Origin: Octopus sinensis
Lineage: Eukaryota
DNA length: 64,000 bases
Assembly: GCF_006345805.1 (NCBI RefSeq)
Contig: NC_043008.1
Coordinates: 3,968,001-4,032,000, forward strand
Direction of reading: 5' to 3'
Below are positions 31,634 through 59,210 of the stretch, one piece after another. The translations under genes and the position numbers were made by a program. Numbering within the stretch: the stretch's first letter is position 1; every line of letters starts with the position of its first letter. Under the pieces are notes generated by a model. That model was not told the origin of the DNA and did no database searches. It worked only from the letters and a program-made list of their open reading frames with translations.

Positions 31634-31640
31634 ATATATA

Positions 31641-31848
31641 TTTAATCCAAACATGAAAACACAAAGAGAAAACACAACAACGCGAGGACGTGGAACAAAT
31701 ATAGTGTTATTGGACGCTTAGGAAAGGAAAGAAAGAAGGAGCATTTAACATTTTGAGCGGAGCTCTTCGTCAGAAACATAAGAAAAGGAAAGATCCAAGG
31801 AAGGGAAGACGGAGGAAAAAAATCGCAAACAATACACAAGCGGTCACA
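31641..31848 (-). mobile_element. Short Penelope-type element end carrying a hammerhead motif
   Basis: Pyrimidine-rich minus strand containing CTGACGAAGAGCTCCGCTC; a related tail fragment is at about 21035-21121. Confidence 0.6.
31743..31779 (-). ncRNA. Minimal type-I hammerhead ribozyme, canonical C3-G8 core, decayed
   Basis: gttt CUGACGA A GAGC ucc GCUC aAAA uGU U aaau; two CpG-type changes from GAAACGUU. Confidence 0.6.
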
Positions 31849-32246
31849 TTTATATATACACACACACACATATATTAGTGCATAAAATGTGTATTCACAT
31901 GATACACTGAAATAAAAATCATTTTTTACATGATGTAGGCTGTAAAACAGCCGTCATCCTTCAGGTAGCAACAGGTGAAATAAATATATTCATCTCTCAC
32001 ACCTGACTCTCTTTATATTCTCTATACTCCTCATGAAATAATTTCACTGATTGGATCTACTGGATTTCAGCTGCAGAGGACTCTACATTACATTTCTCCA
32101 AATTAGATTACTCTGTGGTATGTAGCCAGGTCCAGTAGAGGAGGTTTTTTGTGGTTACCACAGGATTTTATAAATCCATATATTTCACATTAAATTTACA
32201 TGTATATGTATGTGTGTTAATATGAAACCTTTATATGTATATAGTG

Positions 32247-32582
32247 AAGGCACATGGCTCAGTGGTTAGAGCATTGAGCTTACGATTGTGAGGTTGTGAG
32301 TTCGATTCCTGGACTGAGCTGCATGTTGTGTTCTTGAGCAAGACACTTTATTTCACGTTGCTCCAGTTAATTCAGCTGTAGAAAATGAGTTGCAACATTA
32401 CTGGTGCCAAGCTGTATCGGCCCCTTTGCCTTTCCCATGGATAACATCAGGGGTGTGGAGAAGGGAGGCTGGTATGCATGGGCGACTGCTGGCCTTCCAC
32501 AAACAACCTTGCCTGGACTTGTGCCTCGGAAGGTAACTTTCTAGGTGCACTCCCATGGTCATTCATGACCGAAGGGGGTCTT
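32247..32582 (+). mobile_element. tRNA-derived SINE family D
   Basis: A box tggctcagtgg and B box gttcgattcc; a second copy is at 55428-55757. Confidence 0.88.
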
Positions 32583-32636
32583 CTCCTCATATGTATATAT
32601 GTGTATTATCCATGTGTGTATATGTGTGTGTGTGTT

Positions 32637-32687
<51 letters not shown>

Positions 32688-33041
32688 GGATGTATGTATG
32701 TACATATACATATGTTTGTGTATGAGTATCTACATGTGTATGGATATACATGTATATATGTGTATATATAAAATATGCATACATAGGTTATGTATATGTA
32801 TGTATATATATGTGTGAATATATATATGTATGTCTGTATGTATATATGTGTGTGTATCCATGTATGTATATATGTATGTGTGTATATAATGTGAGTTGTG
32901 GTTTCAGATGTACAGTTGCATGTCATAAGATATAACTTGAAAGGTTAATGACCTGAAGGGCATCTGGACATAAAGCTCTGTCTCAGAAAATCTCTCGAGT
33001 CATTGCAGTATGGAAAATCAAATGGAAAATTGATGATATAA

Positions 33042-33073
<32 letters not shown>

Positions 33074-33479
33074 ATAAATTCATTCAATGTTTTAAAAGTA
33101 TTACTTTAAAATATTACTTAAATAACAGAATCTCATGAGGAAAGTTACTAGATTGACCTTGCTTGTCTGAAGTTTAAAACATTCGGAATATTCCTATGAG
33201 AGCCAGGAATGAAATGAAAAACATGAGCTTGAAGCAGACACATTTGCACTTGTCCCTTACAAGGTTTTTTTAATAAAAAAAAAAAAAGGAGATCATAGAG
33301 ATAAGTGTTTTCTTCCTAACATTCGTATAAAATTTCAAAAATATATTCAGATGGCAAGGATTCCCAAAGGAAAACAGACTTGAATTACTGGTTGAATGAC
33401 CAGAAATATGAACCTCATGGTGCTGTTACTTGGAGCCTTTCAATTATATTGTATTAACCAATACTCTACACTTCAGTGT

Positions 33480-33480
<1 letters not shown>

Positions 33481-33516
<36 letters not shown>

Positions 33517-33735
33517 TTGGAGGCATGCACTTTAGCAGCACATTACTGCATCAACTATTTATTGGTGGGTGGATGATGCTTCTGCACCACTCAGGTGAAA
33601 ACCCTCCAGCCCATGGGTCTATTTGTGTAGTCGTTGCTGGTAAGGGTGTTATGAGGTCAGTGTGGAAGTCCTCACATACTGGGCCCCACACATCCTGTTA
33701 TGTATTGACTTCTCCAATTTATCCCTTCTGGTAAA
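33481..33735 (-). mobile_element. Probable LINE 3' end with (CTA)n tail
   Basis: An (AGT)n tract abuts a GC-richer segment whose minus strand reads ...RPMGWRVF... Confidence 0.35.
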
Positions 33736-33779
33736 TCAACAGATATGCACACACGTACACACACACACACACATATATA

Positions 33780-33997
33780 TGAGGGGGGTGCTAAAAAATT
33801 CCTGGCTTTAAGGGCATCGTGAAAGATCTGGTTGGAGGCCCAACTGTCTGAGTTATTCTACAGGGCTTAGGAAAACTGAAGGACTGCTGCAATAAGTGTG
33901 TGAATCTGAGAGAGAAATATATTGAACGAAATCATAATTAACTGATCCTCCTGTGTTTTCTTTTACCCACAGCCAGAACCTTTTTAGCACTCCCTCG
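33780..33997 (+). mobile_element. mariner-derived MITE
   Basis: TIRs gaggggggtgctaaaaaattcctggct / agccagaacctttttagcactccctc. The internal GLGKLKDCCNKCVNLR is a remnant of a mariner C-terminus. Flanked by TA-rich sequence. Confidence 0.8.
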
Positions 33998-35275
33998 AAT
34001 ATATACGATGGGCTTCCACATAGTTTTCATCTTCCAAATTTACTCACAAGACACTGATCAGCCTGGGGTTGTAGCAGAAGACACCCAGGTGTTGCACAGT
34101 GGGACTGAACCAGAAACCACGTGGCTGCAAAGCAAGATTCTTAACCACTGAAGCTCATATAGCATCGTGTGAACTTCTGAAAGAAAGCAAATTTGGTGCT
34201 GATATTCTCTTTACTTTTCACACTCATCAGTTATACATACTTTCTCTATCAAGAAAGCTACTGTTTTGGTTAACCTCCAATAACCCCCTAATCTAGGAGG
34301 CCTATGATCAAAGGCGTTCCAGCTATTACCATTCCATTTATATTTTGCTAAATACAGTGTGTCTAGGATGGCATTATCAAATGTATACTTCTTTATATAA
34401 AACCCTTTAGATACCAACCTGCTTCAGACTGCTGTTGTGATAACGAAAGTTCCAGATAGCATGCTTTAATCAATTTGAAAGACATATATCATGTGTAGCC
34501 ATGGCTGATGTGATACTGGAAGCAAGTGTAAGGGTCATTAATACTTTTAGAGATAAGCAGCTCTTTATCCACTACAACTGCCACTAGTTCTATATTAAAC
34601 CCGTTCACTTTAGTATTTATTTTTAAATTTCACCTTTCTGTTATAATTCAAAGTAAGAAAACTGTGTTATGTTCCAAACACCAGCTGAACGATGAAGTAA
34701 TTTTACTAAACCCCACCCTAATTTCTTGAGTATTTAAAAAATTAATTGAACCTGTAGACAGTGTATTACATTAGAATTATGGTCACAAAAGTATGAAGAC
34801 AATAATGGGATTTAAAGAAGATTTAACTGTTATTTCTAGCCAGTCAGTAACCACGTACAGCCATAGTTCTCATTCTCAGTCTTTTTTGATTTTTTGCTGC
34901 TCTGGATATTAAGTAAAAAAATTACTCACCCATTTCATATGGAAAGCAAAAAAAATTACTGAAACTCTTCACATGGAAAGTGAAAACAAAAACTGTTGAA
35001 ATTTGTTTTTAAATATCAAAGTTTTTTTGGTTTATGAATCATACAAGTGTAAAATAAAATTATGAATAACGTTTTTCAAAGCAATAAAGCATTCGTACAG
35101 ATTTTTTTTGAAAAACTGTAAGTTATATTTTTTTTAAATCCATGGTGCACTCTACAGCACATCATTTGCAAGCCACATGGTTTCGACTATCCCTGGGTGG
35201 CTCATCTATGAAGAAACTATTCTATGCATGTCTAAATATCAAGGGTAAATTATTTTATATCTTTCTATTGTTATT

Positions 35276-35333
<58 letters not shown>

Positions 35334-35506
35334 ATTATTTTCTCATTTGAACCATAAATAATTACATTGCTAAATCAATAATTCTCTTAAAACAATACAT
35401 TCTTTATGATATAATATTCATGTTTTTAAAGCATTTATAATGAGCAGCATAATCAGCAACATATCGTGTCTATTTCTTTGCTGGCTTAGGTTAACTCGGT
35501 CTCATA

Positions 35507-36397
35507 CGAGCTGGTATCAAGAAGTTCTCACACTAGTCATGTTTAATGAAAAATAACTCACTTGCCTAAGTTTTAACAGCATCTCTTTTGAAATAGTCAT
35601 CTTGTACAGCAATACATTGGTTCCGGTGTTTCTGCCACTTTTGGAATCTGGCCTGGAAATTGTTTTGTGTAAGCAAGTCCTGGACCTTCTGCGATTCCTC
35701 TTGATCTTGACAACGGTGTTAAAATGGTAACCTTTGAGCTGCATTTTCATCTTGGTGAGGAGATGGAAGTCCACAGGTGCTGAATATGGTGAATAAGGTG
35801 ATACCATGTTGTTTCTGGTGAGAAACTAATGAGTGAGGAGAGCTTGGTGACAGGATGCATCGTTCTCATGAAGAATTCAGTACTCCACCCTCCACAGACC
35901 TGGTCACTTTCGCCAAATGTCCTCCTTCAAGTGCTTCAAAGCCTTGTTGATTGTCCTCCAGCGATCTTCATGCACAAGCTGATAACTTTTCTCCTCAATT
36001 CTGGCAGTGGTACTTGTGGTAGGCCTTCCAGATCACTCACCATTTTCCAGGGATGTTCTTCTGCATTTGTAGCACCCGTGCCACTCAAAACATTGTGTAC
36101 AACCCATTGCCTCGTCATTGTAAGCTTGCCAAAGTATGCTCAATGTCTCTGTAGCAGACTTTCCAAGTTTAATGCTAGATTTCACATTAGCTCTTTATTC
36201 CTGTCCACATGACAAGATTGCAGACTACAGCATACACGTAATCACAAAAACGCAAATTTCACTGCTTGCAAAGCAAACACAGTGATCTTGCTCGACACAC
36301 TCTGCCTCATGAAGGTCACTGCTAGCTCTCTCAGCATGCATGGAATCTGTTGGCACACTACAGAACTCGTCCAGGAATGTTTTTGATACCACCTTAT
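35507..36397 (-). mobile_element. Internally deleted mariner (DD34D-type) relic
   Basis: Inverted ends cgagctggtatcaagaagttc / gaatgtttttgataccaccttat; PYSPYSAPVDFHLLTKMKMQLKG (compare YSPDLAP.DF.LF); HTH region KLGKSATETL...CFEWH...SGRP. Confidence 0.88.
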
Positions 36398-37244
36398 TAA
36401 GTCTCAACATGGTCTGAGTACCTTTTTTTTTCATTGTGCCATGATAAAATATTTTTTAAGAACTAAGCCAATGTGTACCCAGAATGTAAACTAAATAATA
36501 TTCAAGCTTCCATTGACAGCCTCTACGTGGTTGCTTGGCCTGCCAAAGATAACAGCCAAATGCCTCTCAAATCACACTGTATCTGATGAGATGGATGATG
36601 CAATGTACTCTGTAGCCCTAGATATGCAAAATCAAGACTTAAGCACATGTGCAATCGCTTTCATTACAGATTAACTCAATAAGGGTTGACTTGGGGCTAA
36701 ATCACAATAGCAGCGACTTTTATAAAAATTTCTAAATTTCAATATTTTTTATTGTTGTTGTTGTTATTAAGGTGGTATGTTGGCAGAATCATTAGCACAC
36801 TGGACAAAATGTTTATCAATTTTTCTTCTAGCTTTTCATTCTGAGTTCAAATGCTGCTCTGGTTCACTTTTCCTTTCATCCTTTTTCGGTCAATAAAATT
36901 AGTACCATTAGGACAGTAGGGGGCAGGGTCAATGAAACTGACTAGCTCTCTTCCACAAAAGTTTCAGGCATTACGCCTATAGTTGAAAGAATTATTATTG
37001 TTATTATTATTGCTGTTAGATCAAAATTTCTGTTTTGATTAATAAAATTTGTTTCTTTTCTTTTTATATTTACCAGTGTTTGTAATATCAGAAGTTCTAA
37101 GATTAAATCTGATAGCTTAATAAAAAAAACAATTGTTAGGAAAATTAGATGCTTCCGTTACTTACCTGAAATATTTCCTTAAATATTTTTAGCACCACAT
37201 TTCAACATTTAATTCTACCATGTACTCATTGCTATAGATAGGTA

Positions 37245-37285
37245 TACTGATGGATGGATAGATGTATGGATTGATAGATGAATAA

Positions 37286-37321
<36 letters not shown>

Positions 37322-37352
37322 GTAAATGGATAGATAGATAGATAGGTAAATG

Positions 37353-37393
<41 letters not shown>

Positions 37394-37396
37394 ATG

Positions 37397-37465
<69 letters not shown>

Positions 37466-37524
37466 ATCAGAAACAAACAGGTGAGATATATAGATAAATA
37501 GATTGATAGGTAAATAGGTAAATG

Positions 37525-37561
<37 letters not shown>

Positions 37562-37588
37562 ATGGATAGATAGATAGATAGATAAATG

Positions 37589-37641
<53 letters not shown>

Positions 37642-37700
37642 GTAAATGGATAGTTAAATAGATAGATAAATGGATAGAAAGATAGATAGACAGATAGATG
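37245..37700. repeat. (GATA)n microsatellite array
   Basis: Visible directly. Confidence 0.97.
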
Positions 37701-38509
37701 TGTGCATGTGTGTACACATATATATTTTAGTATGTGTGTATTCATAATAGAAATTCAAAGTTATAAGATAATTGTAGGCAATTATGTAGCTGACATAACT
37801 GTTCCATATATTAAATTTCCCAATACTGCATTTTATAAGTTGGATGAATTCTACTGTACAATCATTTTATCAACGTTAAACCCCCTTCGCACATTCTAAT
37901 CTTGGCAAAGGAATAGTTTTATGACAAAGAAAACTATCAGCAAAAATATTTAAAAGCTTTAAATAATTTCCAGCCATAAAATATATCATTTTTGAAGCAA
38001 AATATGAATATCTTTGTTCCATTACACAGGAAGTTATTATCAACATTAAATTTGAAGAAATTTTTCTAATCCTAACAATGGTTTTAACTTTATCTCCAGA
38101 AATACAACACTTTATTCAATCACATCTATAATAAAAATAGTTTACTCAATTGCATGAGTAAAGACATATATTATATTATATTGTTATATCTTGGGTCATA
38201 AGATTTTCCTTGTATTTCAAATTAAATTCTGGAAATTTCTTGTTATTTCTTTCCAAATAATTGTCATTTTCTGAAGCTTAAATAAATATTTTGGAAAATA
38301 TAACAAAAATTGATTAAACATATCAAACTAGATTTAAGGGGAAATACATAGTTGTATTTAGTTGAAATTCTTCTGTCCTCAGTTCAAAACTCTGTTGTCA
38401 GAGTCAACTTTGCCCGGTTTTTTTTTCTAGATACCACAAAAAAAAAATATATATATATATCAGGCACCAAAAATTCAGTTTTCTGGGAATTTACTCTTCT
38501 ATATTTTTT

Positions 38510-38773
38510 TTTACCTATAATCGTTTTACTTGTTTCAGTCATTGGACAGTGACTATGATCAACTTTGAAGGGTTTGTGTCAAAAAACCCAACCCCCAATA
38601 GGCATTTAAAAAAAATCTAGTTCTTATTCTATCATTTTCTATTGCTGAAATGTTAAGTTACAGTTTTGCAAACAAACTAACATTGCTTGTCAAATGTTGG
38701 GGTGACAAAAACACACACACACACACACAGTCTCTCTCTCTCTCTCTCTCTTTCTCTTTCTCTCTCTCTCTTT

Positions 38774-38809
<36 letters not shown>

Positions 38810-39003
38810 CACACACACATGCACACACACAAATATCTACACGCATACACATAATGGGCTTCCACATAGTTTCCAGCTACCAAATCTCCTCAGAAAGCAC
38901 TGATTGGCCTGGGGCTATACAAGAGGACACTTGCCAGGTTGTGGAACTGAACCTGAAGCAGCTTGGTTACAAAGCCAGCTTAACTATGCAGCCATGCCTG
39001 CAC
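38510..39003 (-). mobile_element. SINE family B copy with expanded internal (CT)n/(CA)n
   Basis: ttttacttgtttcagtcattgg ... cagccatgcctgc. Confidence 0.75.
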
Positions 39004-39059
39004 TTATATGAGAAGTTTTTTTTCTTTATGGTGTTGTTTCTATAAAAATCCACTTTGCC

Positions 39060-39287
39060 AATGTGTTTAAATTCATCTTAAAATAATCAAGGATGTTGAG
39101 ACCTTTGGTAAAATACCTAAATTTATCATAATCAAACTGGTGTTTAGAGCATAACGTTTGGTCCTCACATAAAATTTCAGTGGAAGCTTTAATTAAAACA
39201 TAACCACAATTTGAAACGAAAGGTTTTCTTCCATTGTATCATAGAGCTGGAAATGGTTTCAGATAAATTGGCTATCAAAAGGGTTAA
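39060..39287. mobile_element. TTAA-ended MITE family H
   Basis: Ends tatcaaaagggttaa; homologs at 34399-34795, 45187-45410, 46230-46413 and 61900-62146. Confidence 0.6.
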
Positions 39288-39569
39288 CACTTAATTCTAG
39301 CTGGTGTTCTTGTGGCAGACATTTGATTAAATCAGTTTTAGCTGTGAACATCAAGTCTTTTTGGATATTTTGGGTTACCTAATCTAATTCTTTTATAAGA
39401 CACAACAATAGGATTTGAAAGAGATAAGGCTGCTATCTCTAGCAGATCTAGCATCCACATTAAGGTTCCTGTTACAGCTTTATCTCTAGTGTGCTCATGT
39501 CTTTTGTTAGGTGTTTCATTGTTTCATTAAGACATTCACTTTGTAACTATAGCTTAGAGTTCAATCCTA

Positions 39570-39850
39570 CTGTACAGCACCTAGTCTTCTACTACAGCCC
39601 AGGGCCAACCATTGCCTTGTGAGTACATTTTGTAAATGGAAACTATGTGGAAATCCATTGTGTGTGTGTGTCTTTGTCCCCTCCACCACTTGATAATTGT
39701 TGTTGGTTTGTTTACACCCCTGTAATTTAGCAGTTTTATAAAAGAGACCAATAGAATGAGTACTAGGGTCCATTTGTTTGACTAACTCTGAACAGAGGGG
39801 CTCCAGCATGGCTGTAGTTCAATAATTGAGACAAGTAATAGAGTAATAGA
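39570..39850 (+). mobile_element. SINE family B copy, 5'-truncated
   Basis: cttctactacagcccagggccaacc...ctccagcatggctgtagt. Confidence 0.78.
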
Positions 39851-42800
39851 AGACTTAAGTAAGATAACATTGTCATTGTTAAACTGATGTTGTGAATAAA
39901 TGAATGTAAAATTTTGATGGAATGTTTTACTTCAAAACAGGAAGTTTGTCTCATAAAACCAGGGGCAGAGTCAGGCAGTTTGATAACAAAAGATTTAAAG
40001 CATGAAGGACTCATTAAGATAATTATAATTGATTGAATTTACACAAGTGTTGATGTAGTTGATATGTAAAGAGTTGTTTAATGATAATAATAATAATAAT
40101 GCTCTAGAGGCAACATAATTAATGTATTACATTAATTATTGTTAATACTGTCAGTCATTAAACCCTTGACATTCACGGTGTCTCAGTTCCAACCAAGCAA
40201 ACAATGATCGTTAGATTTAATGATTATCCTCTTCCTCGTTTCCTCATTATGTTTATTTATTTGGGAGAAAAGACTCATCTAAACTGTACACTGCATCCAC
40301 CAAAATAAGAAGCTCCCTTGAATTAACAGGAGAGCCTCTACATGACTGCTCGACCTAGTAGAAAAAGCAGTCAGTTCTCTCTCAACCTGTTATCTTAAAA
40401 AATGATACTCCAGGGTATACACATGTCTAAGAAAACAAGATGGCCATGGTTATAATGCTTTTGACCATAGGACTGCTTCATCAAGGTTGACTTGTGGGTC
40501 CATGCAACAATATCAATATGTGGTTTGCAACCTCCTCTCTAAACACACTAAGAAATATATCTAGAATTGAAATGTCTCAGATCTAAATTTTAGACCCGTT
40601 ATTGCAGATAACAATTACTCATTCTTATACTACCTTTTGGCACCATCATATCTGTTATTATATTGTTCTTTAGAAAGGACTTGCTGGACATCCTCTCCAT
40701 TCATTTCGAACCCCTTCTTGCATCTGCTTGCCTCTCACCTCTGACCATGCATCTTGCATGACTTCTTTCCAAAACCCAAAAACATACTTTATTTCTCTCC
40801 TCTCTTATTTGTTCTGCAAATAAAGTAACCACCAGTTTTCTGAGCTTCATCATAAATTAGCTAATCTAATAACCTAACATATCTCTCATCTCCTGCACTC
40901 TTCTGATATGAGGGACACAGACTTTCTTCTTTAGTCATCAGAATTTTAAAATATTTTTCCTGAATTCAGAACATTTGGGGAAAAGAATATTTATAAGAGT
41001 CATTATCTGATGTGAGATACCTGTTACTGACTGCTAACTCTAATGGAAATACTTCACTTCCATTGAGAAGATAGAAAATTTAGTGACATAGATATGAGCA
41101 GAAATCTTTCATGAAAATTAGCAAAGTAAGTTTATCAGAAAACACAAGAACAATGTGATTAATTTTCCAGATAAGAATAACTGTTTCTGAAAGAGAATTA
41201 TTTATTAAATATATTGCTTGTGTACACCTTCAAAGGAAACTAACTTGTAGAAATAACTATCAGGTTGGTATTGATAATATCACAGAGAAGAAACGTTTCA
41301 GAGAGGAAACCGGGTGAAATAGGAAAATATTAAATTTCTTTTTATCCCTGGCAGAAAAACGGATTGCCATACAATATCAATCATATATTAAGTCTCGGTA
41401 CCAGAGAAGACTCCAATTCCATTATTTAATCTCTATTTTTTATTATCTGATAATATAGAACTTTTATAAAAACTCATTATCTTGAAGGCAATGGTTTTTG
41501 TTTCTATCGTATTTCTATTTTGTTTTGTTTACATTTCATTTGATCACTAGTTCATATGAGTTTCTCAAAAACAATTTAAGTATCAAAGAAAAAAATAAAC
41601 TCACAGAGCCTTAAAGATACATATTTTATTTTGAGAATGCTGTAACATGAAAACCAGCTTTTATAACTTACTTTCAGGAGGTATTATGGGCTTTTCAGTA
41701 AATCATTCTTTAATTTTTTTTTCTTTTTTGTGTTTCTATCAACTGTGTGTTTTGATTGGTCTATTTTCTGATCATGTTCAGATATCGTATATATTCCTAA
41801 CTATATCCATACGATGGTTAAAGGCTGTGTGTGTGCAGTTAGAAGTCGGGCTCAAGACGTTATTCTGCAAATATATCAGTCAAAATATGATGGATTTTTT
41901 TGTCAGTTTTGACAATGAGATTTCAGCTGTTCAGTCAAGTGGACTACCTACACATTCAGTTAATGGGAAAGAGGTTGAGTACTTCACAGATATCGAATCC
42001 TAAACACAATTCTCAGACCAAATTATCATGACAGAATATGTTAGAAAACCGAACCATTGGGTTGTCAGGAAGAGTATGTGTAGAGAAACAATAGGGAAGC
42101 TTATTGGATGATATGAGCCATTGCCCAACTTACTCACAGACCTTTGACTGATCCAAGGCTTATGGTAAAGCACACATTGCCAAGATGCTACAGAGTGAGA
42201 TTTGAACCCAGGATCTTATTATTATGAAGCAAACTTCTTAACCATTTGGCCATGACTGCATCCTCTAATCAAAATATAAGGTAGAGAGGAATATAAAAGA
42301 TTAGTTTATTGGTTCAGTACACAGTAACTCATTAAAAAAAATATAATGTAATTATCTTAGAGGCATAAACAGAACAATCAGATAACATTTAATGAAGAAA
42401 GCTGTGGAAAATATAGATATTAATATCTTGGAAGGGCGAATTAATAAATTTGTATTTAATCCTCTCCCGTAAGGAATATCTTAAATTGGAACTTGATAAT
42501 GAGGTTATATTTCTAAAATATAACCTTGCAAGGAGTAAATAGATTCAGAGATCCATTATTTTTTATATTACTTGTTATTTTTTCTTTCTTTGCTACTAAT
42601 AAATGTTCCCCCTAAATATTTCTGCAAATGTAATATTCTGGCTGATTCTTACATCAGATCTGTAGGAATTATGTTTCTATGTTTATTAATAACTAAAATA
42701 ACCATTAACAAAAGAAAAAAGAAAAAAAATTATTGATTCTCTGCAGCAAATTTTTAGGTCAATATTGGCTTAGACTTGTTTTTAAAGTGTATAAATTTAT

Positions 42801-44298: not shown

Positions 44299-44299
44299 C

Positions 44300-46005: not shown

Positions 46006-46055
<50 letters not shown>

Positions 46056-47589: not shown

Positions 47590-48400
47590 AACTTTCTTCA
47601 CTTAGCCATCCAATTCACTTTTCCCTGACACCATCTCTACTGTTTGCTATTGCAGTAACATCCTCTCTGTGCTTCTTTCTCCTTACCTCAGTTTCCTTGC
47701 CTGACTTGTACACGTTTGGCTTAGTTTGACTCCATCTGCTTCTGTCATGGCAGTTTATTCTCCTGTCTCCATGTTATTTCTACCATTCTGCCATCATTGA
47801 TACTGTCTTCTATGAATTTGCATATTTGTACTTCTCTATTTTGGCCCACTTAACCTTCATTTGTTTTGCCTCTATCCACCTCTCTCACTCACTCCCTCTG
47901 CCAATGCCTCTGTCACCACTACTCACTGTCGCAATCACCACCCACCATCTACTGTAGCATGGTCAGTACTCTTCTTTTTTACTTCATACCCTTCTCTCCA
48001 TATTCCTTGGTTTGGTTGGCTTCCATCACATCTATCATAACAGCCCATTCATACACCACATTCTGTTATTCCTATTACCACTGCTGTCCATTATTACAGT
48101 CACCAGCCTCCCCAGCCCTGTGATGGATATCCGGCCCATTTAGGAGGTCTCTTGTTTGCAGTTCCAGACATCACTTCACTTCTGCTCAATTTAAGTCTTA
48201 TTAAAATGCTTACCATAGGAACATCCTTAATTTTGTACTTTTGCATAATGATTTTTTCATTGTGACTAGTCATAGTCAACTGTGGTAAAGTCTACTCGTT
48301 ATTGATGAGGTCTTAATGAGGCAGAAACATGTTCAAACTTTTCTCTCATAATTGGCTTACAGATGAAAAATAATATCAATCATTTACAATTATTGGTTTC
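47590..48400 (+). mobile_element. Decayed Penelope-like 3' region (pyrimidine-rich tract followed by a hammerhead-like remnant at 48298-48338)
   Basis: uUGAUGA G GUCUU aau GAGGC a GAAA CAUG U U. Confidence 0.4.
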
Positions 48401-49542: not shown

Positions 49543-50300
49543 ACTCAGTAAATGAAAAATGCATTAAATACTACAAAGTGTACACCCAGGACAGACACAG
49601 AATGATCTTAATTCTTCAAGAGTTATCAACCAAAGGTACTAATACACAGTTTTGTGCCTTTAATGATAAAACTGAGAGTTGAAGCTCGAGCAAACAAGAC
49701 AATAGATGGAGGACATAAGAATGTAAAGAAATGCAATTTGGAATGAGAGACGAAGACAGAATAAATACAGTCTTTTGGCTGAACAGGAGAGTGATGGGTA
49801 ATGCCTGGAAGAAATCCTCAATGGATATCAAAAGAGAGAAATAGTAAGAGAGGAGAAAATGTTGAGCATCCAGTGAAGCGTCTGGTGGTGAAAAGGTAGA
49901 GATGAGAGAACTGGTCATGGGTCAGATGTGAGCAGTAGATAGGGGGGAAGGAGGATGAGAGAGAGGGAGAGAGAGAAGAAGGAAGGGAGAAAGTTTACAA
50001 ATAAGTGTGAGAAGATGAGAGAGAGGAAGTAGGGATGCTAGAAAATGAATAAGAGGATGTGAGAGAAAGAAAGAAAGAAGATAGTCGCAAAAAATATATG
50101 GAAACTTAACTGTTAACAAAAGTTGGGATGCTTGGCGTTCAGTTACTCAATAAATGAAAAATGCATTAAATATTACAAAACGTACATGTCAGAGAGACAC
50201 AGAAGGACCCTAATACTTCATCAGTGAGGAAGAATTAGGGTCCTTCTGCATCTGTCCTACATGTACGTTTTGTAGTATTTAATGCATTTGTCATTTATTG
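49543..50300. repeat. Direct plus inverted terminal repeat structure (about 73-bp unit at 49543-49617 and 50145-50219, inverted at 50229-50300) around a purine-rich body
   Basis: The unit caataaatgaaaaatgcattaaata...aattcttc is seen three times. Confidence 0.85.
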
Positions 50301-50346
50301 TGAAGACAGATAGATATTTATATATAGATAGACATTCATATATGTA

Positions 50347-50723
50347 CACTTGCGTCAGAAATTAATTAGCACTTCTCAAATTTCTACATTAAATAGGTTA
50401 AATCAATTAACCTATGAGCTGTTCAAAACGTCTTACACGATGAGAAAACTTAGTATGGTGTGATTTCGGTCCTTGCGAGGCGCTACCTATATCTATTAAA
50501 CAAAGGAAGATTTGTCTGCATCCGCACTCCAATTTGTTGCACTGCTATGTCAACATCATAAGGCTGTAGACTCTCAAACTGCTCTGCAAGCAAAGTTACA
50601 TCATCGTTCTGCGCAACAGTGAACTCACAACAAAGCAATAGTTCGAGATATGGCCACTAGGTGACAGCACATACCTTGAGTGAAGAGCAAATCAAGGGTG
50701 CTAATTAATTTCTGACGGTAGTG
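50347..50723. mobile_element. Tc1-like MITE, 26-bp TIRs, TA TSD
   Basis: TA|cacttgcgtcagaaattaattagcac ... gtgctaattaatttctgacggtagtg|TA. Confidence 0.9.
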
Positions 50724-50737
50724 TATATATATATATT

Positions 50738-50927
50738 GACACGTAAAAAGCACCCACTACACTCATGGAGTGGTTGGCGTTAGGAAGGGCATCCAGCTGT
50801 AGAAACATTGCCAGATAAGACTGGAGCCTGGGGCAGCCTTCTGGCTTCCCAGATCCCCGATCGAACCGTCAACCCATGGCATGGAGAACGGACGTTAAAC
50901 GATGATGATGATGATGATGATGATGAT
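50738..50927 (+). mobile_element. RTE-LINE 3' end (family C), short, (GAT)n tail
   Basis: aaaagcacccactacactc...ggacgttaaacgatgatgat. Confidence 0.88.
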
Positions 50928-51696
50928 ATATATATATATATATATATATATCAAATGGCATGGCCAAGGCCATAATACTTTTGAGATCATAAACCTGCTT
51001 AATCAAGGTTGATCTGGAGCTAACAAGCAACAGCAAAAACAACTCCTACTGCTACTACTACTACTACTACTACTGACATTGCCACCACCACTGTATTGAC
51101 CGTATTGTTAGTCTCTCCTTGAAGTTAATTGTAAAATCTTTGGTCATGACTTGGCATTTACTACTGAAATCACATTGAAAAGTACTTTCATTCATCATTG
51201 AATTTACTGAAGAAGTAAATAAAAAGAAGAAGAACCAGGATTGGTTGTTGTTTTTGTTGTTTTTTTCACATGGAGTTGCTAATAATTTTTATTCGTCCAG
51301 ACTCGTTTTATACAAATTGATGAGCTGAGCTTTTTGAAAATTTTGTACATTTTGAAATCCTATTGATGGATTTTACTTGGTGTTTGTGACTAAAGCATCA
51401 ATGGTGTTTTTTAACACCAACAATGAAATTCTGCAATGTGATTGATGGGTTTAGTTGTACTTCTTGAATGATGGGCAGCCACTTAAAGAAGCTGTCATTG
51501 GTTTTTTTTCTGTGAGTTGAGAGACAAATTGCTGAGGAAGTAGCCTCAGATGTATAGCATGCAAATATAGGATGGGTCTGGTCTGTTTTAAAAAAAATTT
51601 TTTATCTTTTGTAAGGGTCAATGCCTTCCTCAGAACCCTGTATGCTCTCCTCCTCCTGGCACTCTTTCACTTACGACAAGTATTCCAAGCCTTTAT

Positions 51697-51932
51697 TGTG
51701 AAATTGACATGCAAGTAGCAGAGCATTTCACAAACACGAGGACCCTTAACATAGTTCTCAGGGTGATTCAGAATGACACACAGAATAATATGACAAAGGT
51801 GGCCCCTTTGAATGACAGGTACAACTCATTTTTGCCAGCTGAGTGAATATGAAATAAAGTGTCTTGCTCGGGGACACAACATGCCACTGGGAATCAAACC
51901 TTACAAGCCAAACAGCCGAACCACTGAGCCAC
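51697..51932 (-). mobile_element. tRNA-derived SINE family E
   Basis: Collinear with 26217-26524. Confidence 0.75.
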
Positions 51933-52922
51933 CTTCCTCAACAACCCTCTAAATGCATCTATTTATTGTAACGACTTCTTCTCCAAATGAAATTCTTTCT
52001 GTCTGAGCCAATCATTTCCAGTTGTTTTTGCTTAAGAAAACTATTTGCCCAGTGGCAAAGAACACAATCTGAAATGTATGTGATTACAATAGAGATACTT
52101 TTAGAGATACTCAATTTAAGTCAAATAGACACATTTGCTGCCCTCTAAACACCCACACCCAGTTATATATATATATAAATTATGTCATACTTATAGATCT
52201 AACCATCTACCCAGCTTCATAGAGTTGGTCAGAAGGAGATAGAATCTTTTAATGACATACTCTCACACATTTATACTATCTCACTCAGACATATTAGATT
52301 TAATATTGATCAAGAGGAAATATATATAGATACATGTGCGTGCACACACACACACACACTCATACACACGCACACACACACACACACATGCACGCACACA
52401 TGTCTCCGAAACATTAAATCCCAATTAATGAAGAAACACCATAGAGAAGGAAATGGTTATTTGTGAGGTTTTCTCATGTAATGTGATCTATGATGTAAAT
52501 GATTACAAGAGATAAGAACTGCCTCAAACTGGACATGTTCCAGAGTGTTGGCTGGAGGTAGTCTTGGTCAAAGTGTACAGCATAAGTCAATTACGAAATT
52601 GCTTTTCTATATCTTTGCCAATGTTTTCAATATACTGCGCTTCTTTTCTTTCCATCTTCCAGTTTAGGCAAAGTTCTTTTCACTTCCCACCCGGCCTTCC
52701 CACCCTTACTTTTTAATACCACCTCACTTTCACTTACCTCCCTCCTCACCTTCATTTACAAACCATCACCAGATTCTCTTCAGTTCTAATGAAGGCTCAA
52801 ATCTGTGTTTGTTATCTTTAGATCAATGACTCTGGGCAACAACCCAAGCCTCTCTCACAATGCCATTCATCTATTTAATTCTTAGAACTTTTCTCAGGGT
52901 ACAGCTAACAACAAACCATATG

Positions 52923-52960
<38 letters not shown>

Positions 52961-53621
52961 GTATATTTATATATATGTATATATATATATTCATTCTGGT
53001 GGTTTCCTTGTTGATATACCTAAATTTAGAAAGCCTAAAAGGATTGGGTAGGGATTGGTTATGAAGAGGTAATATCAATACTTAATTCCATAGGTAAAAA
53101 CATGTTTACAATATTGTGTGCATTTGTGTGTTCTCCAAGTGTACATGCAGATGCATGTTGTAATATGCCAGTGACAAAGTCTCAGTTATGTTACGCATTA
53201 AATTTCCAACAATCTATTTTGAGTATTTTCTGTTATTCTCATCATGACACATGCAAGGTTTTTTTTTTCTGTATTTATTTCAGTTACCAATACTTTGTAG
53301 AGAAATCATATCTTTAATTGAAATATTATTTGAATGTCTTATGTGATATGCGTGTGGTTTCAGAACATATTTTGAGTTTTAGTGATGTTTAGATAAATAT
53401 TAAATATGATGTTTATAGCAAGCAATCACCAAATATACTTAGAGGGAAAATCACTGTAAGGATACCGAATCAATTAGGGAGCTTCTATTTTAGTATTTAC
53501 AAAAACAAATTAGCTATGGGTTGCATGTTAAAGAAGTTTACTTTTCAACTATATCATTCTGGTTTTGCTTTGGTTTTGGGGGAAAAGTATCTTCTATGAT
53601 AGATCCAGCTTAATTAATACC

Positions 53622-53856
53622 TATTTCTTTACTACCCACAAGGGGCTAAACACAGAGAGGACAAACAAGGACAGACAAACGGATTATGTCGATGATATCA
53701 ACCCCAGTGCGTAACTGGTACTTATTTAATCGACTCCGAAAGGATGAAAGGCAAAGTCAACCTCGGCAGAATTTGAACTCAGAACGTAGCGGCAAACAAA
53801 ATACTGCTAAGCATTTCACCCGGTGTGCTAACGGTTCCGCCAGCTTGCCGCCTATT
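53622..53856 (-). mobile_element. Young SINE family A copy with 13-bp TSD, nested in an old family B SINE (about 53515-53945)
   Basis: cttaattaatacc at 53609-53621 and 53857-53869; the flanks rejoin into family B sequence. Confidence 0.9.
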
Positions 53857-54403
53857 CTTAATTAATACCAATCAGTGGAAATTTGGTGGATGAAACTCTG
53901 TGGAAGCCTATCGTGTGTGTGTGAGTGTGTGTGTGTGTGTGTGTGTTTGATTTTTGATTCATATTAGCAAAATATGAGCAAGAAAAGGAATAAACTATCA
54001 GAGTAGTCATTGTGGTATTTTTCCTGGTCCTTAATATATTCCGTCAAGCAATAAACCTCAAACTATAAAACCATTCTTTCTTTGCTTGTTTAAAATGGTA
54101 AATTGTAAATTGAGAGAAGGCAAAATTTGACTACTATTTCTAGCAAATCAAATGACTACTTGGGGCCATTGCTCTTTTGTTCAGGGTGGGTGATGATTGT
54201 TGCAAAGTTGATGATTTATGAATCTTATTCCTACCCCAATCGAATAATAGTTTAAGTGGATTCAAAGAGTCTGGTGCAGCACCCTAGCTTGCCAGCTCTG
54301 GTCAAACTGTCCAATCCATGGACAACGGAGGTTAAATGATGATGCTGATATATATATATCTGCTGTATCAGTGCTAAGCAGGGATTAGGCATAAGCAAAT
54401 TTT

Positions 54404-54598
54404 AGGTTAGTTAAAATATGTTTGTAGCACTGCAAGTTACCATGGAGAAAAAATTCTCTCTTATGGTAAAAGGTGTAAAAACACCATCTCTGTGTTTTTA
54501 CACCTTTTACCATAAAAGAGATTTTTTTTCCTCCAGAGTAACCTCAGAGAATTTGCCTTAGAAGTTGAAATATGCCACGAGCATATTTTAAGTAACCT
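54404..54598. repeat. Long palindrome with a 24-bp perfect inner stem and an asymmetric bulge
   Basis: ttatggtaaaaggtgtaaaaacac-catctct-gtgtttttacaccttttaccataa; outer arms aggttagttaaaatatg / catattttaagtaacct. Confidence 0.9.
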
Positions 54599-54619
54599 TA
54601 TATATATATATATTTATAT

Positions 54620-54652
<33 letters not shown>

Positions 54653-54790
54653 GTATATGTATATATATGTATATGTATATATATGTATATGATAAAATTA
54701 TGTGGTAAGGATTCAACGAGTAGAATAGCACTTGATCAGCTAAGTGAGTAAAGATAATATTTTAATAAAAACCACAAATCTTGTTAATTA

Positions 54791-54844
54791 CAGCTACCCA
54801 GGGTTTCGTGGCTGAAACATTTTTTTTTGCCATTTTTCAAGCTG
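54791..54844 (-). ncRNA. Minimal hammerhead fold, U3-A8 variant
   Basis: CAGC UUGAAAA aUGGC-loop-GCCAc GAAA CCC u GGG UA GCUG. Confidence 0.6.
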
Positions 54845-54923
54845 AGAACATGACATTTTGACAGTTGCTTTAAAGCAAATGACGTCACCTGCTTTAAAGC
54901 AACGGTCAAACCATCTTTGTTCT

Positions 54924-54976
54924 CAGCTTGAAAAATGGTAAAGTAAATGTTTCAGCCATGAAACCCCGGGTAGCCG
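54924..54976 (+). ncRNA. Minimal hammerhead fold, U3-A8 variant (mirror copy)
   Basis: CAGC UUGAAAA AUGGU-loop-GCCAU GAAA CCC c GGG UA GCcG. Confidence 0.55.
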
Positions 54977-55012
54977 TAATTAACAAGACTTGTAGGTTTT
55001 AGTATAATGTTA

Positions 55013-55062
<50 letters not shown>

Positions 55063-55427
55063 GAGTCTGTAAGATGTTGTCAGTAAGATGCTGGATAGAT
55101 ATAGAAACTACTTTTATTTTTGTTATATAGATGCAGTACTCTAGTGCTTCACTTTTGAATATATTCTTGTGTATTATATTAATGGGTGATAAGTGGTCCT
55201 CCATTAATATAATGGCATTCTGCTTGAGAGAAAAGTTCTGTGACCTGGTTTTGATTCTAGATTGTAGCTAATATCATGGCTTTACACCACTAATTCGCTT
55301 GGGGAGAACGTGATTCTCCCAAATGTAACCCTGCCTTGCCACTGAAGTCAACAGCTGGTTACCCTTTGATGGATTCTTCTGATAGTAGTTCACACACAAT
55401 TACTGCTCTCATATTTTGCCCTAAAGG

Positions 55428-55757
55428 GAAGGCGCATGGCTCAGTGGTTAGAGCATTGGCCTTACGATCATGAGGTTGTGATTTTCATTCTCAGACTTGG
55501 TTCTGTGTTGTGTTCTGGGGCAAGACATTTTATTTCACATTACTCCAGTTCACTCAACTGTGGAAGCGAGTTGCAACATCACTGGGGCCAAGCTGTTTTG
55601 GCCCCTTTGCCTTTCCCTTGGACAACATTGGTGACATGGAGAAGGGAGACTGTTACACATAGGTGACTGCTGGTCTTTCACAAACGATCTTGCCCAGACT
55701 TATGCCTGAGGGGAACATTCTAGGTTCAATCCCTTGGTCAGTTGTCACTGAAGAGGC
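55428..55757 (+). mobile_element. tRNA-derived SINE family D
   Basis: Collinear with 32247-32582. Confidence 0.85.
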
Positions 55758-56295
55758 TAATATCAATAAAGATACATAAAGATTATGCACTCAGTTCAAT
55801 ATTCTACAGTATGCTATATACAACAGGTGTGTATAATATATACAACAGACCCACAAACACAAAGACAACCTCTTACTGAGACAAATGTGTTCAGTGAAAT
55901 AAAAACTTAATTTCATAGTTTTTAGCTTCTGTGCGGTTGGCCAAATTTTTGGTGGGGTTGTTTGTGGGGTTTTTTTTCAGTCTTTTCCTAAAGTTCACTC
56001 TGTTGCTAGTACTTGGTCCCGTTCTCCACCTCACACACTTTTTTTCTTACAGAAAACAACCTGCACATGTATCATCAGGATCAATACTAGCACAGATCAT
56101 GATCTCTGCTGCCACTTCTTCTGCTCTGGCTTTAAAAAGTAAAAAAAAAACCAGGTGCTTCTTAATCTCAACAATTTGATTAAGCTTCTTCAATGGCAAG
56201 AACATTTTTCTTTCTTTTTCCTTTTTTTCTTTTTTTTTTCTTTTTTCTAACAGTGATTCAGTTTATGATTGTTTAATGTGTGTTCAATGCATTAA

Positions 56296-56480
56296 AGTGG
56301 TGAGCTGGCAGAATCATTGGCATGCCATGCAAAATTCTTAGTAGTATTTTGTCTGTCTTTACATTCTGAGTTCAAATTCCGCCAAGGTCAACTTTTGCCT
56401 TTCATTCTGAGCACCAGGGTTGATGTAATCGACTTACTCACTCCCCCACAATTTGCTGGCCTTGTGCCAAAACTTGAAAA
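56296..56480 (+). mobile_element. SINE family A copy
   Basis: gtggtgagctggcagaatcatt...ttctgagttcaaattccgccaaggtc. Confidence 0.8.
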
Positions 56481-56849
56481 CAATATGTGTCTAATGCATA
56501 TTAGTCAACCAATATATTATACACACCTGTTATAGACATAATCTGTGTTATAACATGAAATACCATCACTTGAAAAAACATTATTTCACTCTTTTCAGAG
56601 ATTTAGTCAGGAAGGAAGGCTTGTAATATTGAGAATCCACCATGGACAGTTTATTGTAGATTTTGGTAAGTTAAACTGCCACAATGAATGAGAAATCTAT
56701 CTCATGTTATGAGGTCTTGCTGTCATCTGAGAAGAGAGCAAGGGGGATGTGATCACTTGGGCAGTTACAGAGTGAATTTTATATCAGAGTAGGTTTTGAT
56801 TAGTTCAGCATCAAACAGCCTCAGTTGAATGCAGAGATGAGGAGGGTTG

Positions 56850-57600
56850 CTATGTATTTGCTAACATTCTTTGGCTGAGCCAACAAGTGGGGCAGTTAGA
56901 AACATTTTAATCGCATTAGAAACAACTTTTCATCCTACGATATTTATTTCTGATATTGAAAACGTTGGCAATAATCAGCCAATCTGTTTTATTGTATAAA
57001 TATGCTGTCAGCACTCTTCCATTCTGTATCCAATATTCTTAACAAATGTTAAGCGGTAAATGCTCTTTGCTTAACTATCATTTTCTGCCACCTGACCAAT
57101 ATTCTGCAGAAGAAATGGTTCAGAGTTTTTCGTTTTTACTAAATTTATAGTTACAGAGTTTCCGTCCTTAGATTTTCTGATAGTTTCTGTTGTCTTTAGC
57201 TGACTATGGTGAGCAAACCTATGTTGTCTTTAGATATTTTGCGATTTGCTATTAATTTTCCTGACATCTAATATGAATTCAAGCAAATGTTGATTTTGAA
57301 ACCTTAATGATATCACAGTAACCATTAAAACTGCTTGTCTTCACGTATTTCCAGTTAGTTTCACAATTCTCTTTGATCTTGTGATATATTTACGCAATCG
57401 TTGCTGAATCTTCATAGCAAGTCTCTGTTTCCATTAGTTTTGTTTGCTTTTCAACTCTGTCTGTTTCCAGTGTAATTTCTGCTGTTGCCTGGCTTCAGTG
57501 GTTCCACTTTATTTTGAATAACCTTCTGTGTTGTTAGAGAGATTGAAGAAGACACAAGCAGCACTTTTTGTTGAGTAGCTGCAATCATCTCTGCCTGAGT
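56850..57600 (-). mobile_element. Decayed LINE ORF1 (L1/Tx1-like, zinc knuckle remnant)
   Basis: Minus-strand fragments EYWIQNGRVLT and KSCF*CD*NVSNCP resemble NG.R...CF.C....H....CP. Confidence 0.35.
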
Positions 57601-58968
57601 AAACTTATGCCATGGAGAAAGCATATTTGAGCAAACTATAGAAATAACTTACTTGAGTAAACATGGTGTAAGGAAATAATTTGTTCCATCCTATCTTTAT
57701 GTGTTTTTGTTGTTTTTTTATGTTAGAAAAAAATATGGTGGTTCTAGATGTAAGCCTATTGTACTGAGCTAGCTGAATAACAATATAGATACTCTTTTTT
57801 ATTGGTTCATTTGTCGTAAAATTGTCTTAGGTCTGTTTTATTATTAAGTGGTGCCATAAAACTAACAACAGCTGTATAACATGTTGTTTTTGCTACTCAG
57901 CACAGGAGCCAGGTTAATAGAGTTTTCATTTCATGAAAGAATGTTGTTTTTGAATGTGCCAAAATTTTATTTTGAGTGGATTAACCACGATATGGGTACA
58001 ATGTATTGATTTATTTCCTTCTGTTTCAAAATCTATCTGGCAGCAGGTGCTAGCTTCTACAATAAGCAAATAATTAATTATGTATGCTACCACACAGCAG
58101 GAGAATTAATAAGTTTGGTATATAGTGAGATGTATAGGATTTATAATAGTTGTGTCTAATCGTGGTTATTGTTGTAATTGAACCTAAAGTCATTTGGCAT
58201 GCATTCTCTCTACAACAACCATCATTAGTGTTAAAATCAATAGGAGAAAGTGAATAGATGATTTTACTACTTTATTTGCAGCCTACACAGAGAACTATCG
58301 AAACTGTGTTCGTGTACATCAAATATATATTTGCCTGTATTCGTGTGTATGTATACATCTCTGCCCATATATGGGTTTTGTTTGTCTACATGTTAGTATT
58401 TGTGATACGAGTGTGTATTTCTGTATTTTGGGGGTGAATTGATGGCAGATTTCCATGAAAATTCTTTAGTAGGAAAGGAATAATTTGTAAGTAAAACTAA
58501 TTATGGTAACAACTGCTTTATCTCTTTTGATCATGATTGATTGCCAAAATGCTGAAGTATCATTTCTACAGTGTGAACTACTTTTCATAATAGACCAGAG
58601 ATTTAAAGTCAGTGTTTGTCAAAATTATCCAGCTTTTTGCTTTATGGAGAAAACAATTATCTTGTAAGAAACTTCAAGTCGATTTCCATTCTTTCATTCA
58701 GAATGCTATTATATAGTATAAAAAAAAATCCTCCTTCATCACAATATGCCAAAGCTAGACTACCAAAAGATACAAGTTTTAAACTTCACACAGATAATTT
58801 TGCTTAGTAGTAAGCATTGTAGAATAGCAGTAGGTTAACAGTAAATGAAGCTTAGAATGAGGTTTAGATTTAGTTAAAGCCATTTCTTTTCACCAATGTC
58901 ATTAATTGCAGAGATATACTTGCATAGCAAGTGACATGATCTGAGATCGTGTGCTGGAATGAAAACAT

Positions 58969-59210
58969 TTGCAGCATGGAGGGTATTTATAAGCCATTTA
59001 AGAAACACACAAAATACGTTAGATTCACTTCAACATTTAAATTTAATTTGCCAAAATATTTTCGTCGCTTTGAGCATGGATTTTTGTCAGTGAACAGGTC
59101 ACGGTCTCAAAGTGACGAAAATATTTTGACAAGTTATATTTAAATGTTGAAGTGAATCTAACAGATTTTGTATTTTCTTAAATGACTTATAAACACCTTC
59201 CACGCTGCAA
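58969..59210. repeat. About 242-bp palindrome with an asymmetric centre
   Basis: ttgcagcatggagggtatttataagccatttaag... / ...cttaaatgacttataaacaccttccacgctgcaa. Confidence 0.92.
59084..59132 (+). ncRNA. Minimal type-I hammerhead fold, G3-C8 variant
   Basis: UUGUCA GUGAACA G GUCAC ggucucaaa GUGAC GAAA AUAU U U UGACAA: perfect 6-bp stem I, perfect 5-bp stem II and palindromic stem III. Confidence 0.68.

What the first reader, a model, noticed from the sequence alone, without database searches (positions are those of the whole stretch)
31743..59132. A family of minimal hammerhead ribozymes with three different 3-8 core pairs in one window
Seen: four motifs, in three unrelated elements, share the layout stem I - N3UGANN8A - stem II - GAAA - short self-complementary stem III - UH - stem I. 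The core is CUGACGA at 31743(-), UUGAAAA at 54791(-) and 54924(+), and GUGAACA at 59084(+). Positions 3 and 8 co-vary as C-G, U-A and G-C. Known: 3-8 is a tertiary Watson-Crick pair in the hammerhead core, and Penelope-like elements carry minimal type-I hammerheads with palindromic stem III that are thought to cleave as dimers. Inference: these are Penelope-derived or retrozyme-like ribozyme-bearing repeats that a CUGANGA pattern search would miss, and the covariation argues for past selection on catalysis.
Basis: partly seen in the sequence, partly recalled or inferred. Interest (0 to 1): 0.75.

Follow-up and report, generated by a model that had tools for sequence, protein, structure and literature searches.

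The report
Penelope retroelement hammerheads with swapped cores
The four motifs are decayed or folded-back end-pieces of three abundant Penelope-type jumping-gene families, each carrying a hammerhead-shaped RNA whose central base pair differs between families (C-G, U-A, G-C) yet stays paired, which likely reflects past selection for a slow, assisted self-cutting fold, though cutting is untested and these particular copies are predicted to be inactive.

Summary
All four motifs are in the sequence as described. They are cut-short ends (pseudo-LTRs) of three Penelope-like element (PLE) families. Longer copies in the genome carry RT plus GIY-YIG remnants or ORFs (families A, C) or Hydra-clade endonuclease motifs (B). 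They are not retrozyme arrays. Minimal PLE hammerheads, the U3-A8 core and opposite-strand pairs are published (PMC4209133). I found natural G3-C8 in no paper I could read, but the most relevant paper (Lunse et al.) was not held. The 3-8 covariation is real but lies between families, not within them. Family C and two sister families (51-56% protein identity, one clade) hold G-C, U-A and C-G, with compensatory changes in stems I and II. With positions 3 and 8 left free, 13 of 15 other families or singletons pair there. Selection on fast catalysis is less certain: one sister fixes A9C, a relative of family A fixes A6U (14,311 pattern matches), and family B lacks G10.1-C11.1. The window copies look dead: G12A in A, long fold-back hairpins in B and C. 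The scan noted G3-C8 and A6U before, in this and other genomes. Verdict: new variant of a known kind.

The parts
31634..31858 (-). Family A solo PLE end (about 225 bp) between TA/TG microsatellites
   Evidence: 93% to a family copy over 225 nt; longer copies L302 and L303 carry RT and GIY-YIG remnants upstream
31743..31777 (-). Hammerhead motif A: core CUGACGA (C3-G8), extra A, stem II GAGC/GCUC; this copy has G12A and C15.2U
   Evidence: family majority GAAACGUU; 1,611 exact intact 31-mers
54701..54883 (-). Family B left arm, with the 3' tail
   Evidence: 84% over 188 nt; tail seen in many family arms
54791..54844 (-). Hammerhead motif B(-): stem I CAGC/GCUG, core UUGAAAA (U3-A8), A.C opposite at 10.1-11.1, stem III ACCCUGGGU, GUA site
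54884..55007 (+). Family B right arm, no tail; inverted partner of the left arm
   Evidence: whole element folds as one hairpin, -156 and -161 kcal/mol for the two strands
54924..54976 (+). Hammerhead motif B(+): core UUGAAAA at 54928-54934, stem III ACCCCGGGU, stem I mismatch at 54975
58894..58906 (+). 13-bp direct repeat, left copy (likely target-site duplication of the C insertion)
   Evidence: flanks printed
58913..59074 (-). Family C inverted arm, cut inside loop II (no core), with the 57-nt tail
   Evidence: element positions 40-201, 92%
59073..59211 (+). Family C direct arm, no tail
   Evidence: element positions 7-146, 93%; element folds as one hairpin, -137 kcal/mol
59084..59132 (+). 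Hammerhead motif C: stem I UUGUCA/UGACAA, core GUGAACA (G3-C8), extra G, stem II GUCAC/GUGAC, GAAA, stem III AAUAUU, U17 at 59126
59208..59220 (+). 13-bp direct repeat, right copy
29873..30002 (+).
   Evidence: the 9 other S1 copies found in fetched loci all have U3-A8

Best explanation
The four motifs are minimal type-I hammerhead-shaped sequences in cut-short ends of three Penelope-like retroelement families, and in the parent elements the fold likely cut RNA slowly, helped by a second copy or by the element's protein, while these window copies are predicted to be inactive. Shown: each family's longer copies lead into PLE coding sequence; the motif, stems and 3-8 pair are family-wide; sister families of C swap the pair and the stems in a compensated way; C copies end at two 3' points 57 nt apart and pair up inverted. 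Inferred: the element RNA is copied from internal start sites just downstream of the hammerhead, as shown for an anole PLE, mostly before it is cut; copying usually stops early, which leaves short solo or fold-back ends in AT-rich DNA. Inferred: the 3-8 pair was kept because the active fold needs it, whichever letters form it.
For: PLE link: C, 21 of 30 loci found with its endonuclease carry the motif downstream, 20 with G3-C8; GIY-YIG Pfam E 3e-5; 1,042-codon open frame with the YVDD RT motif. A, tblastn to another PLE protein of this genome E 1e-28 upstream of the motif. B, CxCx5C linker in 14 of 25 loci, the Hydra mark in PMC8557442. Covariation: C, S1 and S2 form one clade (99/99) with G-C, U-A, C-G at 3-8 and compensated pairs in stems I and II. 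Free 3/8 descriptor over 1.08 Mb: 8 of 8 multi-copy clusters pair there, shuffle gives 1 hit; 13 of 15 without A, B, C, p about 1e-6 against 0.25. Position 7 varies in A and B while 3 and 8 stay. PLE marks: 16 arms end at 137-159 and 20 at 203 or later, of 41; 11 of 13 inverted loci have exactly one tailed arm. C3G/G8C partly rescues a PLE hammerhead, which cuts only with protein (PMC11167929).
Against: No cleavage was measured. A relative of A fixes A6U (14,311 matches; 99 of the first 100 listed have T at 6, none A) and S2 has C at position 9 in 7 of 7 copies, so core letters can be lost in lineages that spread. B has A opposite G, C or U at 10.1-11.1 (37, 10, 5 of 55). The families are related, so the binomial p overstates independence. 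The stem III dimer fold is not the predicted minimum for any of 6 motifs tried. B's link to a PLE protein is motif-based: a profile gave best E 0.023 against 0.073 in the reversed control, and no B RT core was seen. A's endonuclease piece had no Pfam match.
Confidence: 0.78

Rival explanations
1. The fold is kept as a structure or protein-binding element for packaging, splicing or translation control, and cutting is vestigial or absent.
For: Fixed A6U in family E, C9 in S2, no G10.1-C11.1 in B. None of 41 C arms starts within 3 nt of the cut site. Catalytic mutants did not impair insertion in vitro, and no RNA reads ended at the site, in an anole PLE (PMC11167929).
Against: The 3-8 pair, G5, G12-A14 and the UH site are kept across families; that the 3-8 pair belongs to the active fold is recalled, and cites partial rescue by C3G/G8C. 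The 41-arm sample is biased: the query reached 7 nt upstream of the cut, so only the 13 partner arms are unselected.
Confidence: 0.15
2. They are non-autonomous retrozymes that spread as tandem repeats and RNA circles.
For: Most copies are short and non-coding; one C locus has two direct copies (L168); a 2026 preprint links animal retrozymes to PLE ends.
Against: Longer copies run into PLE coding sequence; window copies are solo or inverted; C has two fixed 3' ends typical of PLE tails.
Confidence: 0.04
3. The match is chance in AT-rich, hairpin-rich repeats, and the three pairs were picked by eye.
For: Window-level descriptor counts are near shuffle levels; Rfam finds no hammerhead; the fifth relic has an unpaired 3-8.
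Against: 194 descriptor hits in fetched loci against 1 in shuffled loci (loci enriched for these families); the motif sits at the same place behind the ORF in sister families with compensated stems.
Confidence: 0.03

Closest known systems
Minimal type-I hammerheads in pseudo-LTRs of metazoan PLEs (Cervera and de la Pena 2014, PMC4209133; parts 1-2 of 4 read, supplement searched)
   Same: Type-I layout, short palindromic stem III, extra base between 9 and 10.1, mostly solo truncated copies, opposite-strand pairs 100-700 bp apart, U3-A8 variant
   Different: Family C has G3-C8, not described in the parts read or seen in the supplement passages; B lacks G10.1-C11.1; relatives fix A6U or A9C
Poseidon PLE of Anolis, PAc (Frangieh et al. 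2024, PMC11167929; parts 1-2 of 4 read)
   Same: Hammerhead near the ORF start; two 3' ends giving an optional tail; AT-rich targets
   Different: There C3G/G8C is an engineered double mutant with partial activity; here it is the natural state of a whole family. Tail is 57 nt in C, 30-40 there
Hydra, Neptune and Nematis PLE clades (Craig et al. 2021, PMC8557442; passages and Hydra section read, supplement searched)
   Same: B has the CxCx5C linker and CxxC/CxH marks of Hydra; A and C have a CX2-5CxxC linker with CCHH as in Neptune/Nematis; (TA)n targets; inverted 5'-truncated partner copy
   Different: Clade names for A and C rest on motifs only; no reference proteins were in the tree
Natural U3-A8 and A6C hammerheads (Perreault et al. 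2011, PMC3088659; passages)
   Same: Natural 3-8 covariation; slow variants at position 6
   Different: Reports U3-A8 only in the passages read, not G3-C8; A6C, not A6U
Non-LTR retrozymes (bioRxiv 10.64898/2026.07.22.740005; part 1 of 5 read)
   Same: Short non-coding repeats with type-I hammerheads related to PLE ends
   Different: Defined by tandem arrays; these are solo or inverted ends of coding PLEs

Membership tests
Penelope-like element (EN+) | RT with C-terminal GIY-YIG endonuclease upstream of the end repeat | tested here: met
   C. A: (E 1e-28), Pfam blank. B: see the Hydra rows; RT core not seen
Penelope-like element (EN+) | Optional 3' tail, present at one end | tested here: met
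   C: 16 and 20 of 41 arms at two ends; 11 of 13 inverted loci have one tailed arm. B: tail on one window arm. Not seen for A
Penelope-like element (EN+) | 5'-truncated and inverted copies, AT-rich or (TA)n targets | tested here: met
   13 of 28 C loci inverted; A and B flanks
Penelope-like element (EN+) | Full element with end repeat on both sides of one intact ORF | tested here: inconclusive
   C open frame of 1,042 codons has no upstream end repeat in L361; no complete copy was found
Penelope-like element (EN+) | Intron in the end repeat | tested here: inconclusive
   C has CUAAC, a pyrimidine tract and AG just before the 5' pile-up (490 exact copies); contigs could not show splicing
Hydra clade (family B) | CxCx5C linker, CxxC and CxH near the end, no CCHH | tested here: met
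   CxCx5C 14 of 25, CxxC 9 of 25 (1 on the wrong strand), CxH 5 of 25 decayed loci; definition
Hydra clade (family B) | RWK and DKT motifs in RT; tree position | not tested
   No B copy reaching the RT core was fetched
Minimal type-I hammerhead | Core N3UGANN8A ... GAAA ... UH with 3-8 paired | tested here: met
   Family majorities; window copy A fails at G12
Minimal type-I hammerhead | Stems I and II, palindromic stem III | tested here: met
   compensated changes among C, S1, S2
Minimal type-I hammerhead | G10.1-C11.1 pair after an inserted base | tested here: inconclusive
   Met in A and C; not met in B, where A faces G, C or U
Minimal type-I hammerhead | Site-specific self-cleavage | not testable with these tools
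   Only assembled contigs were available
Non-LTR retrozyme | Head-to-tail arrays of hammerhead units | tested here: not met
   Window copies solo or inverted; 15 single and 13 inverted of 28 C loci; no genome-wide tandem search was run
Non-LTR retrozyme | Circular RNA | not testable with these tools
   No raw RNA reads

The most novel reading that the evidence does not exclude
One genome holds a natural mutagenesis series of the hammerhead core in successful retroelements: three sister PLE families with G3-C8, U3-A8 and C3-G8 (the last with A9C), a relative of family A with A6U, and a Hydra-clade family without G10.1-C11.1. If these cut with the PLE protein, the protein widens the tolerated core beyond the textbook consensus and genome censuses miss tens of thousands of ribozymes. 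If some do not cut, PLEs spread without cleavage while keeping the fold. Natural G3-C8 would be unreported.
Probability: 0.4. Interest if true: 0.65.

Novelty: new variant of a known kind. Interest (0 to 1): 0.42.

Why it matters
What the hammerhead does for Penelope-like elements is an open question: it is nearly universal in their end repeats, yet slow in vitro and not needed for insertion in the one reconstituted system. Sister families that keep the 3-8 pair with three different letter pairs show that the fold was under selection, and families with fixed A6U or A9C give ready natural test cases for whether cutting is needed. Family C has near-intact young ORFs, so RNA and protein can be tested together. 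Searches fixed on CUGANGA undercount these motifs. The window copies themselves are probably inert relics.

Tried and rejected
Window-only descriptor and shuffles: near chance. Rfam: no hammerhead match. Repeat finder swamped by microsatellites. Family A next to a GIY-YIG remnant in L098: rejected as a chance neighbour in (TA)n. tblastn of two PLE proteins against 25 B loci: no hit at E 0.01; profile search inconclusive. Pfam on A's endonuclease piece: blank. Sequencing runs: no RNA holder listed on record; contigs of 4 runs guessed to be RNA cover the C end but cannot show starts, strand, splicing or cutting. MAFFT put S1's stem II and GAAA two columns off, so pairs were read by anchors instead. 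Dimer folding by ViennaRNA does not favour the stem III dimer; it has no tertiary terms, so this is weak. Pfam on 58 of 74 open frames of the window: one weak CENP-B match, no host gene found. Lunse et al. (RNA Biol 14:1499), Przybilski and Hammann 2007, Nelson and Uhlenbeck 2008 and Martick and Scott 2006 were not held; nothing of them was read. Searches for natural G3-C8 or A6U in print: and supplement searches; they returned G3-C8 only as an engineered variant.
Full report
Observation. The four motifs are present. The copy at 31773 reads AAAA where the layout needs GAAA. The two motifs near 54800-54950 are inverted arms of one element. Within the window alone the pattern is close to chance: a strict descriptor found only the 59090 motif, and 16 of 100 block-wise dinucleotide shuffles gave a hit; a loose one found 3 of the 4, and 4 of 100 shuffles gave 3. 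Rfam returned no hammerhead among 120 matches at E<=5.

Families. The window lies in a 2.7-Gb genome, likely an octopus; that label is recalled and also stands in earlier notes, and I did not test it. Each motif belongs to a dispersed family (40 candidates scored each time). Family A: the majority is CUGACGA A GAGC UCC GCUC GAAA CG U U, and an intact 31-mer has 1,611 exact matches, reversed control 0. The window copy's two changes fall on CpG sites. C3-G8 holds in 96 of 101 arms, a set partly chosen by that pattern. Family B: stem I CAGC/GCUG continued after an internal loop, core UUGAAAA, stem III ACCCUGGGU, GUA site; U3-A8 in 50 of 55 arms, position 7 variable, and A facing G, C or U (37, 10, 5 of 55) where G10.1-C11.1 is usual. 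Family C: G3 in 66 of 68 and C8 in 74 of 76 arms covering those places, out of 103 arms in 58 loci. There is no covariation within a family, apart from one C copy with A3-U8 (L336).

Link to Penelope-like elements. [quoted passage not shown] Of 30 loci found with this endonuclease region, 21 carry the motif within reach, 20 with G3-C8; one open frame is 1,042 codons. A: long copies L302 and L303 match another PLE protein of this genome upstream of the motif (E 1e-28 and 3e-11); 3 of the 5 long loci gave no such match in place, and Pfam did not match the endonuclease piece. B: upstream remnants show CxCx5C in 14 of 25 loci, CxxC in 9 (one on the wrong strand) and CxH in 5, the marks given for the Hydra clade (PMC8557442). 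A profile test was inconclusive and no RT core was seen, so B is the weakest link. The window also holds a PLE ORF remnant at 16639-17408.

How the copies arose. C arms end at two places: 16 of 41 at positions 137-159 and 20 at 203 or later, 5 elsewhere; 11 of 13 inverted loci have exactly one tailed arm. This is the PLE tail, which in an anole PLE reflects two internal starts of reverse transcription (PMC11167929). The window's B and C elements have this form, and C has a 13-bp direct repeat on its flanks. 25 of 41 C arms begin within 7 nt of an AG/AUG about 20 nt upstream of the core. Longer copies show CUAAC and a pyrimidine tract before that AG (490 exact matches). This fits a splice acceptor, as reported beside the Drosophila virilis hammerhead, or a start site; contigs could not decide. 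No arm starts within 3 nt of the cut site, which suggests uncut templates, but the query reached 7 nt upstream of the cut, so only the 13 partner arms are unselected.

Is the covariation real? Two tests say yes. First, a descriptor free at positions 3, 6 and 8 over 1.08 Mb of fetched loci gave 194 hits in 20 clusters, against 1 hit after shuffling. All 8 multi-copy clusters pair at 3-8 (1 G-C, 3 C-G, 4 U-A), as do 8 of 10 singletons with A6; 2 further singletons lack A6. Leaving out A, B and C, 13 of 15 pair (p about 1e-6 against 0.25); the families are kin, so this overstates independence. Second, C has two sister families at 51-56% identity in the endonuclease region, forming one clade with it (99/99; the three-way split is unresolved; B was left out). 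Of 8 fetched diverged C loci, 2 showed the motif, both G3-C8.

Against fast catalysis. S2 has C at position 9 in 7 of 7 copies. A relative of A (family E, same stem II and III) has U at position 6: 14,311 matches to a pattern free at 6 and 7; of the first 100 listed, 99 have T, 1 has C, none has A at 6, while 7 takes all four letters. Published PLE hammerheads cut poorly even as dimers, and in the anole PLE only with protein; catalytic mutants still inserted. G8C lowers the rate 10^5-fold and C3G partly restores it (PMC8495972, passage). The best reading is therefore selection on the hammerhead fold, including the 3-8 pair, with slow or assisted cutting.

The window copies. A has lost G12, a residue whose change strongly lowers the rate. 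B and C fold into long hairpins (-137 to -161 kcal/mol) that bury the motif, and B's two motifs face opposite ways, so one transcript cannot hold both in sense. A fifth relic at 29875, from S1, has an unpaired C3.A8, whereas 9 of 9 other S1 copies have U3-A8. No host gene was detected in 58 of 74 open frames scanned.

Comparison and novelty. Minimal hammerheads in PLE ends, the inserted base, U3-A8 and opposite-strand pairs are in PMC4209133 (parts 1-2 of 4 read, supplement searched). U3-A8 is also in PMC3088659 (passages). G3-C8 appeared only as an engineered variant in searches and supplement searches. Lunse et al., which reports many PLE-associated variants (recalled; cited in PMC6765202), was not held, and alignments shown as figures could not be seen; either may already contain it. 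Other papers seen: PMC2377424, PMC3884650, PMC10085705, PMC6155905 (passages), PMC8557442 (passages, one section, supplement search), the 2026 retrozyme preprint (part 1 of 5). The scan has noted G3-C8 in 10 findings and A6U in several, in this and other genomes; these are unchecked notes, not support.

Verdict. Observation confirmed; interpretation partly supported. New variant of a known kind, interest 0.42.

Noticed in passing
L366 and relatives; window 21040-21214 holds only its 3' part: Family E, a relative of A, has core CUGUNGA (A6U) with position 7 free; 14,311 pattern matches genome-wide. Its coding partner was not sought.
   Followed up: partly
L346-L352: Family S2, sister of C, has CUGAUGC (C at position 9) in 7 of 7 copies and stem III AGAACU.
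   Followed up: partly
window 29873-30002 (+): S1 relic with C3.A8 and stem III read as AAGCUU instead of AAUU.
   Followed up: yes
L336:3387-3443 (+): One C copy has A3-U8, a double change that keeps the pair; single copy, may be chance.
   Followed up: no
L158, L161, L177, L361, L362: CUAAC, pyrimidine tract and CAG or UAG directly before the 5' pile-up of family C: splice acceptor or start site.
   Followed up: partly
L096, L097, L106, L216: A young PLE family D with many open frames of up to 781-883 codons carries UUGAUAA (U3-A8) with stem III ACAUGU.
   Followed up: partly
L066 and L194: Two similar hammerhead motifs with CUGACGA and UUGACAA: another C-G to U-A swap in look-alike sequences.
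   Followed up: no
window 16639-17408 (+): Decayed PLE thumb and GIY-YIG remnant, E 5e-11 to the family D protein.
   Followed up: no
window 19755-19866 (-): 3' piece of another hammerhead-bearing repeat family, motif itself absent.
   Followed up: no
window 30819-31247 (-): Weak CENP-B N-terminal match (E 4e-4, below cut-off), perhaps a DNA transposon relic.
   Followed up: no
window 295, 14289, 17687, 36773, 56298 and 5159, 8675, 21957, 31446, 44393: Two dispersed five-copy repeat families, probably SINE-like.
   Followed up: no
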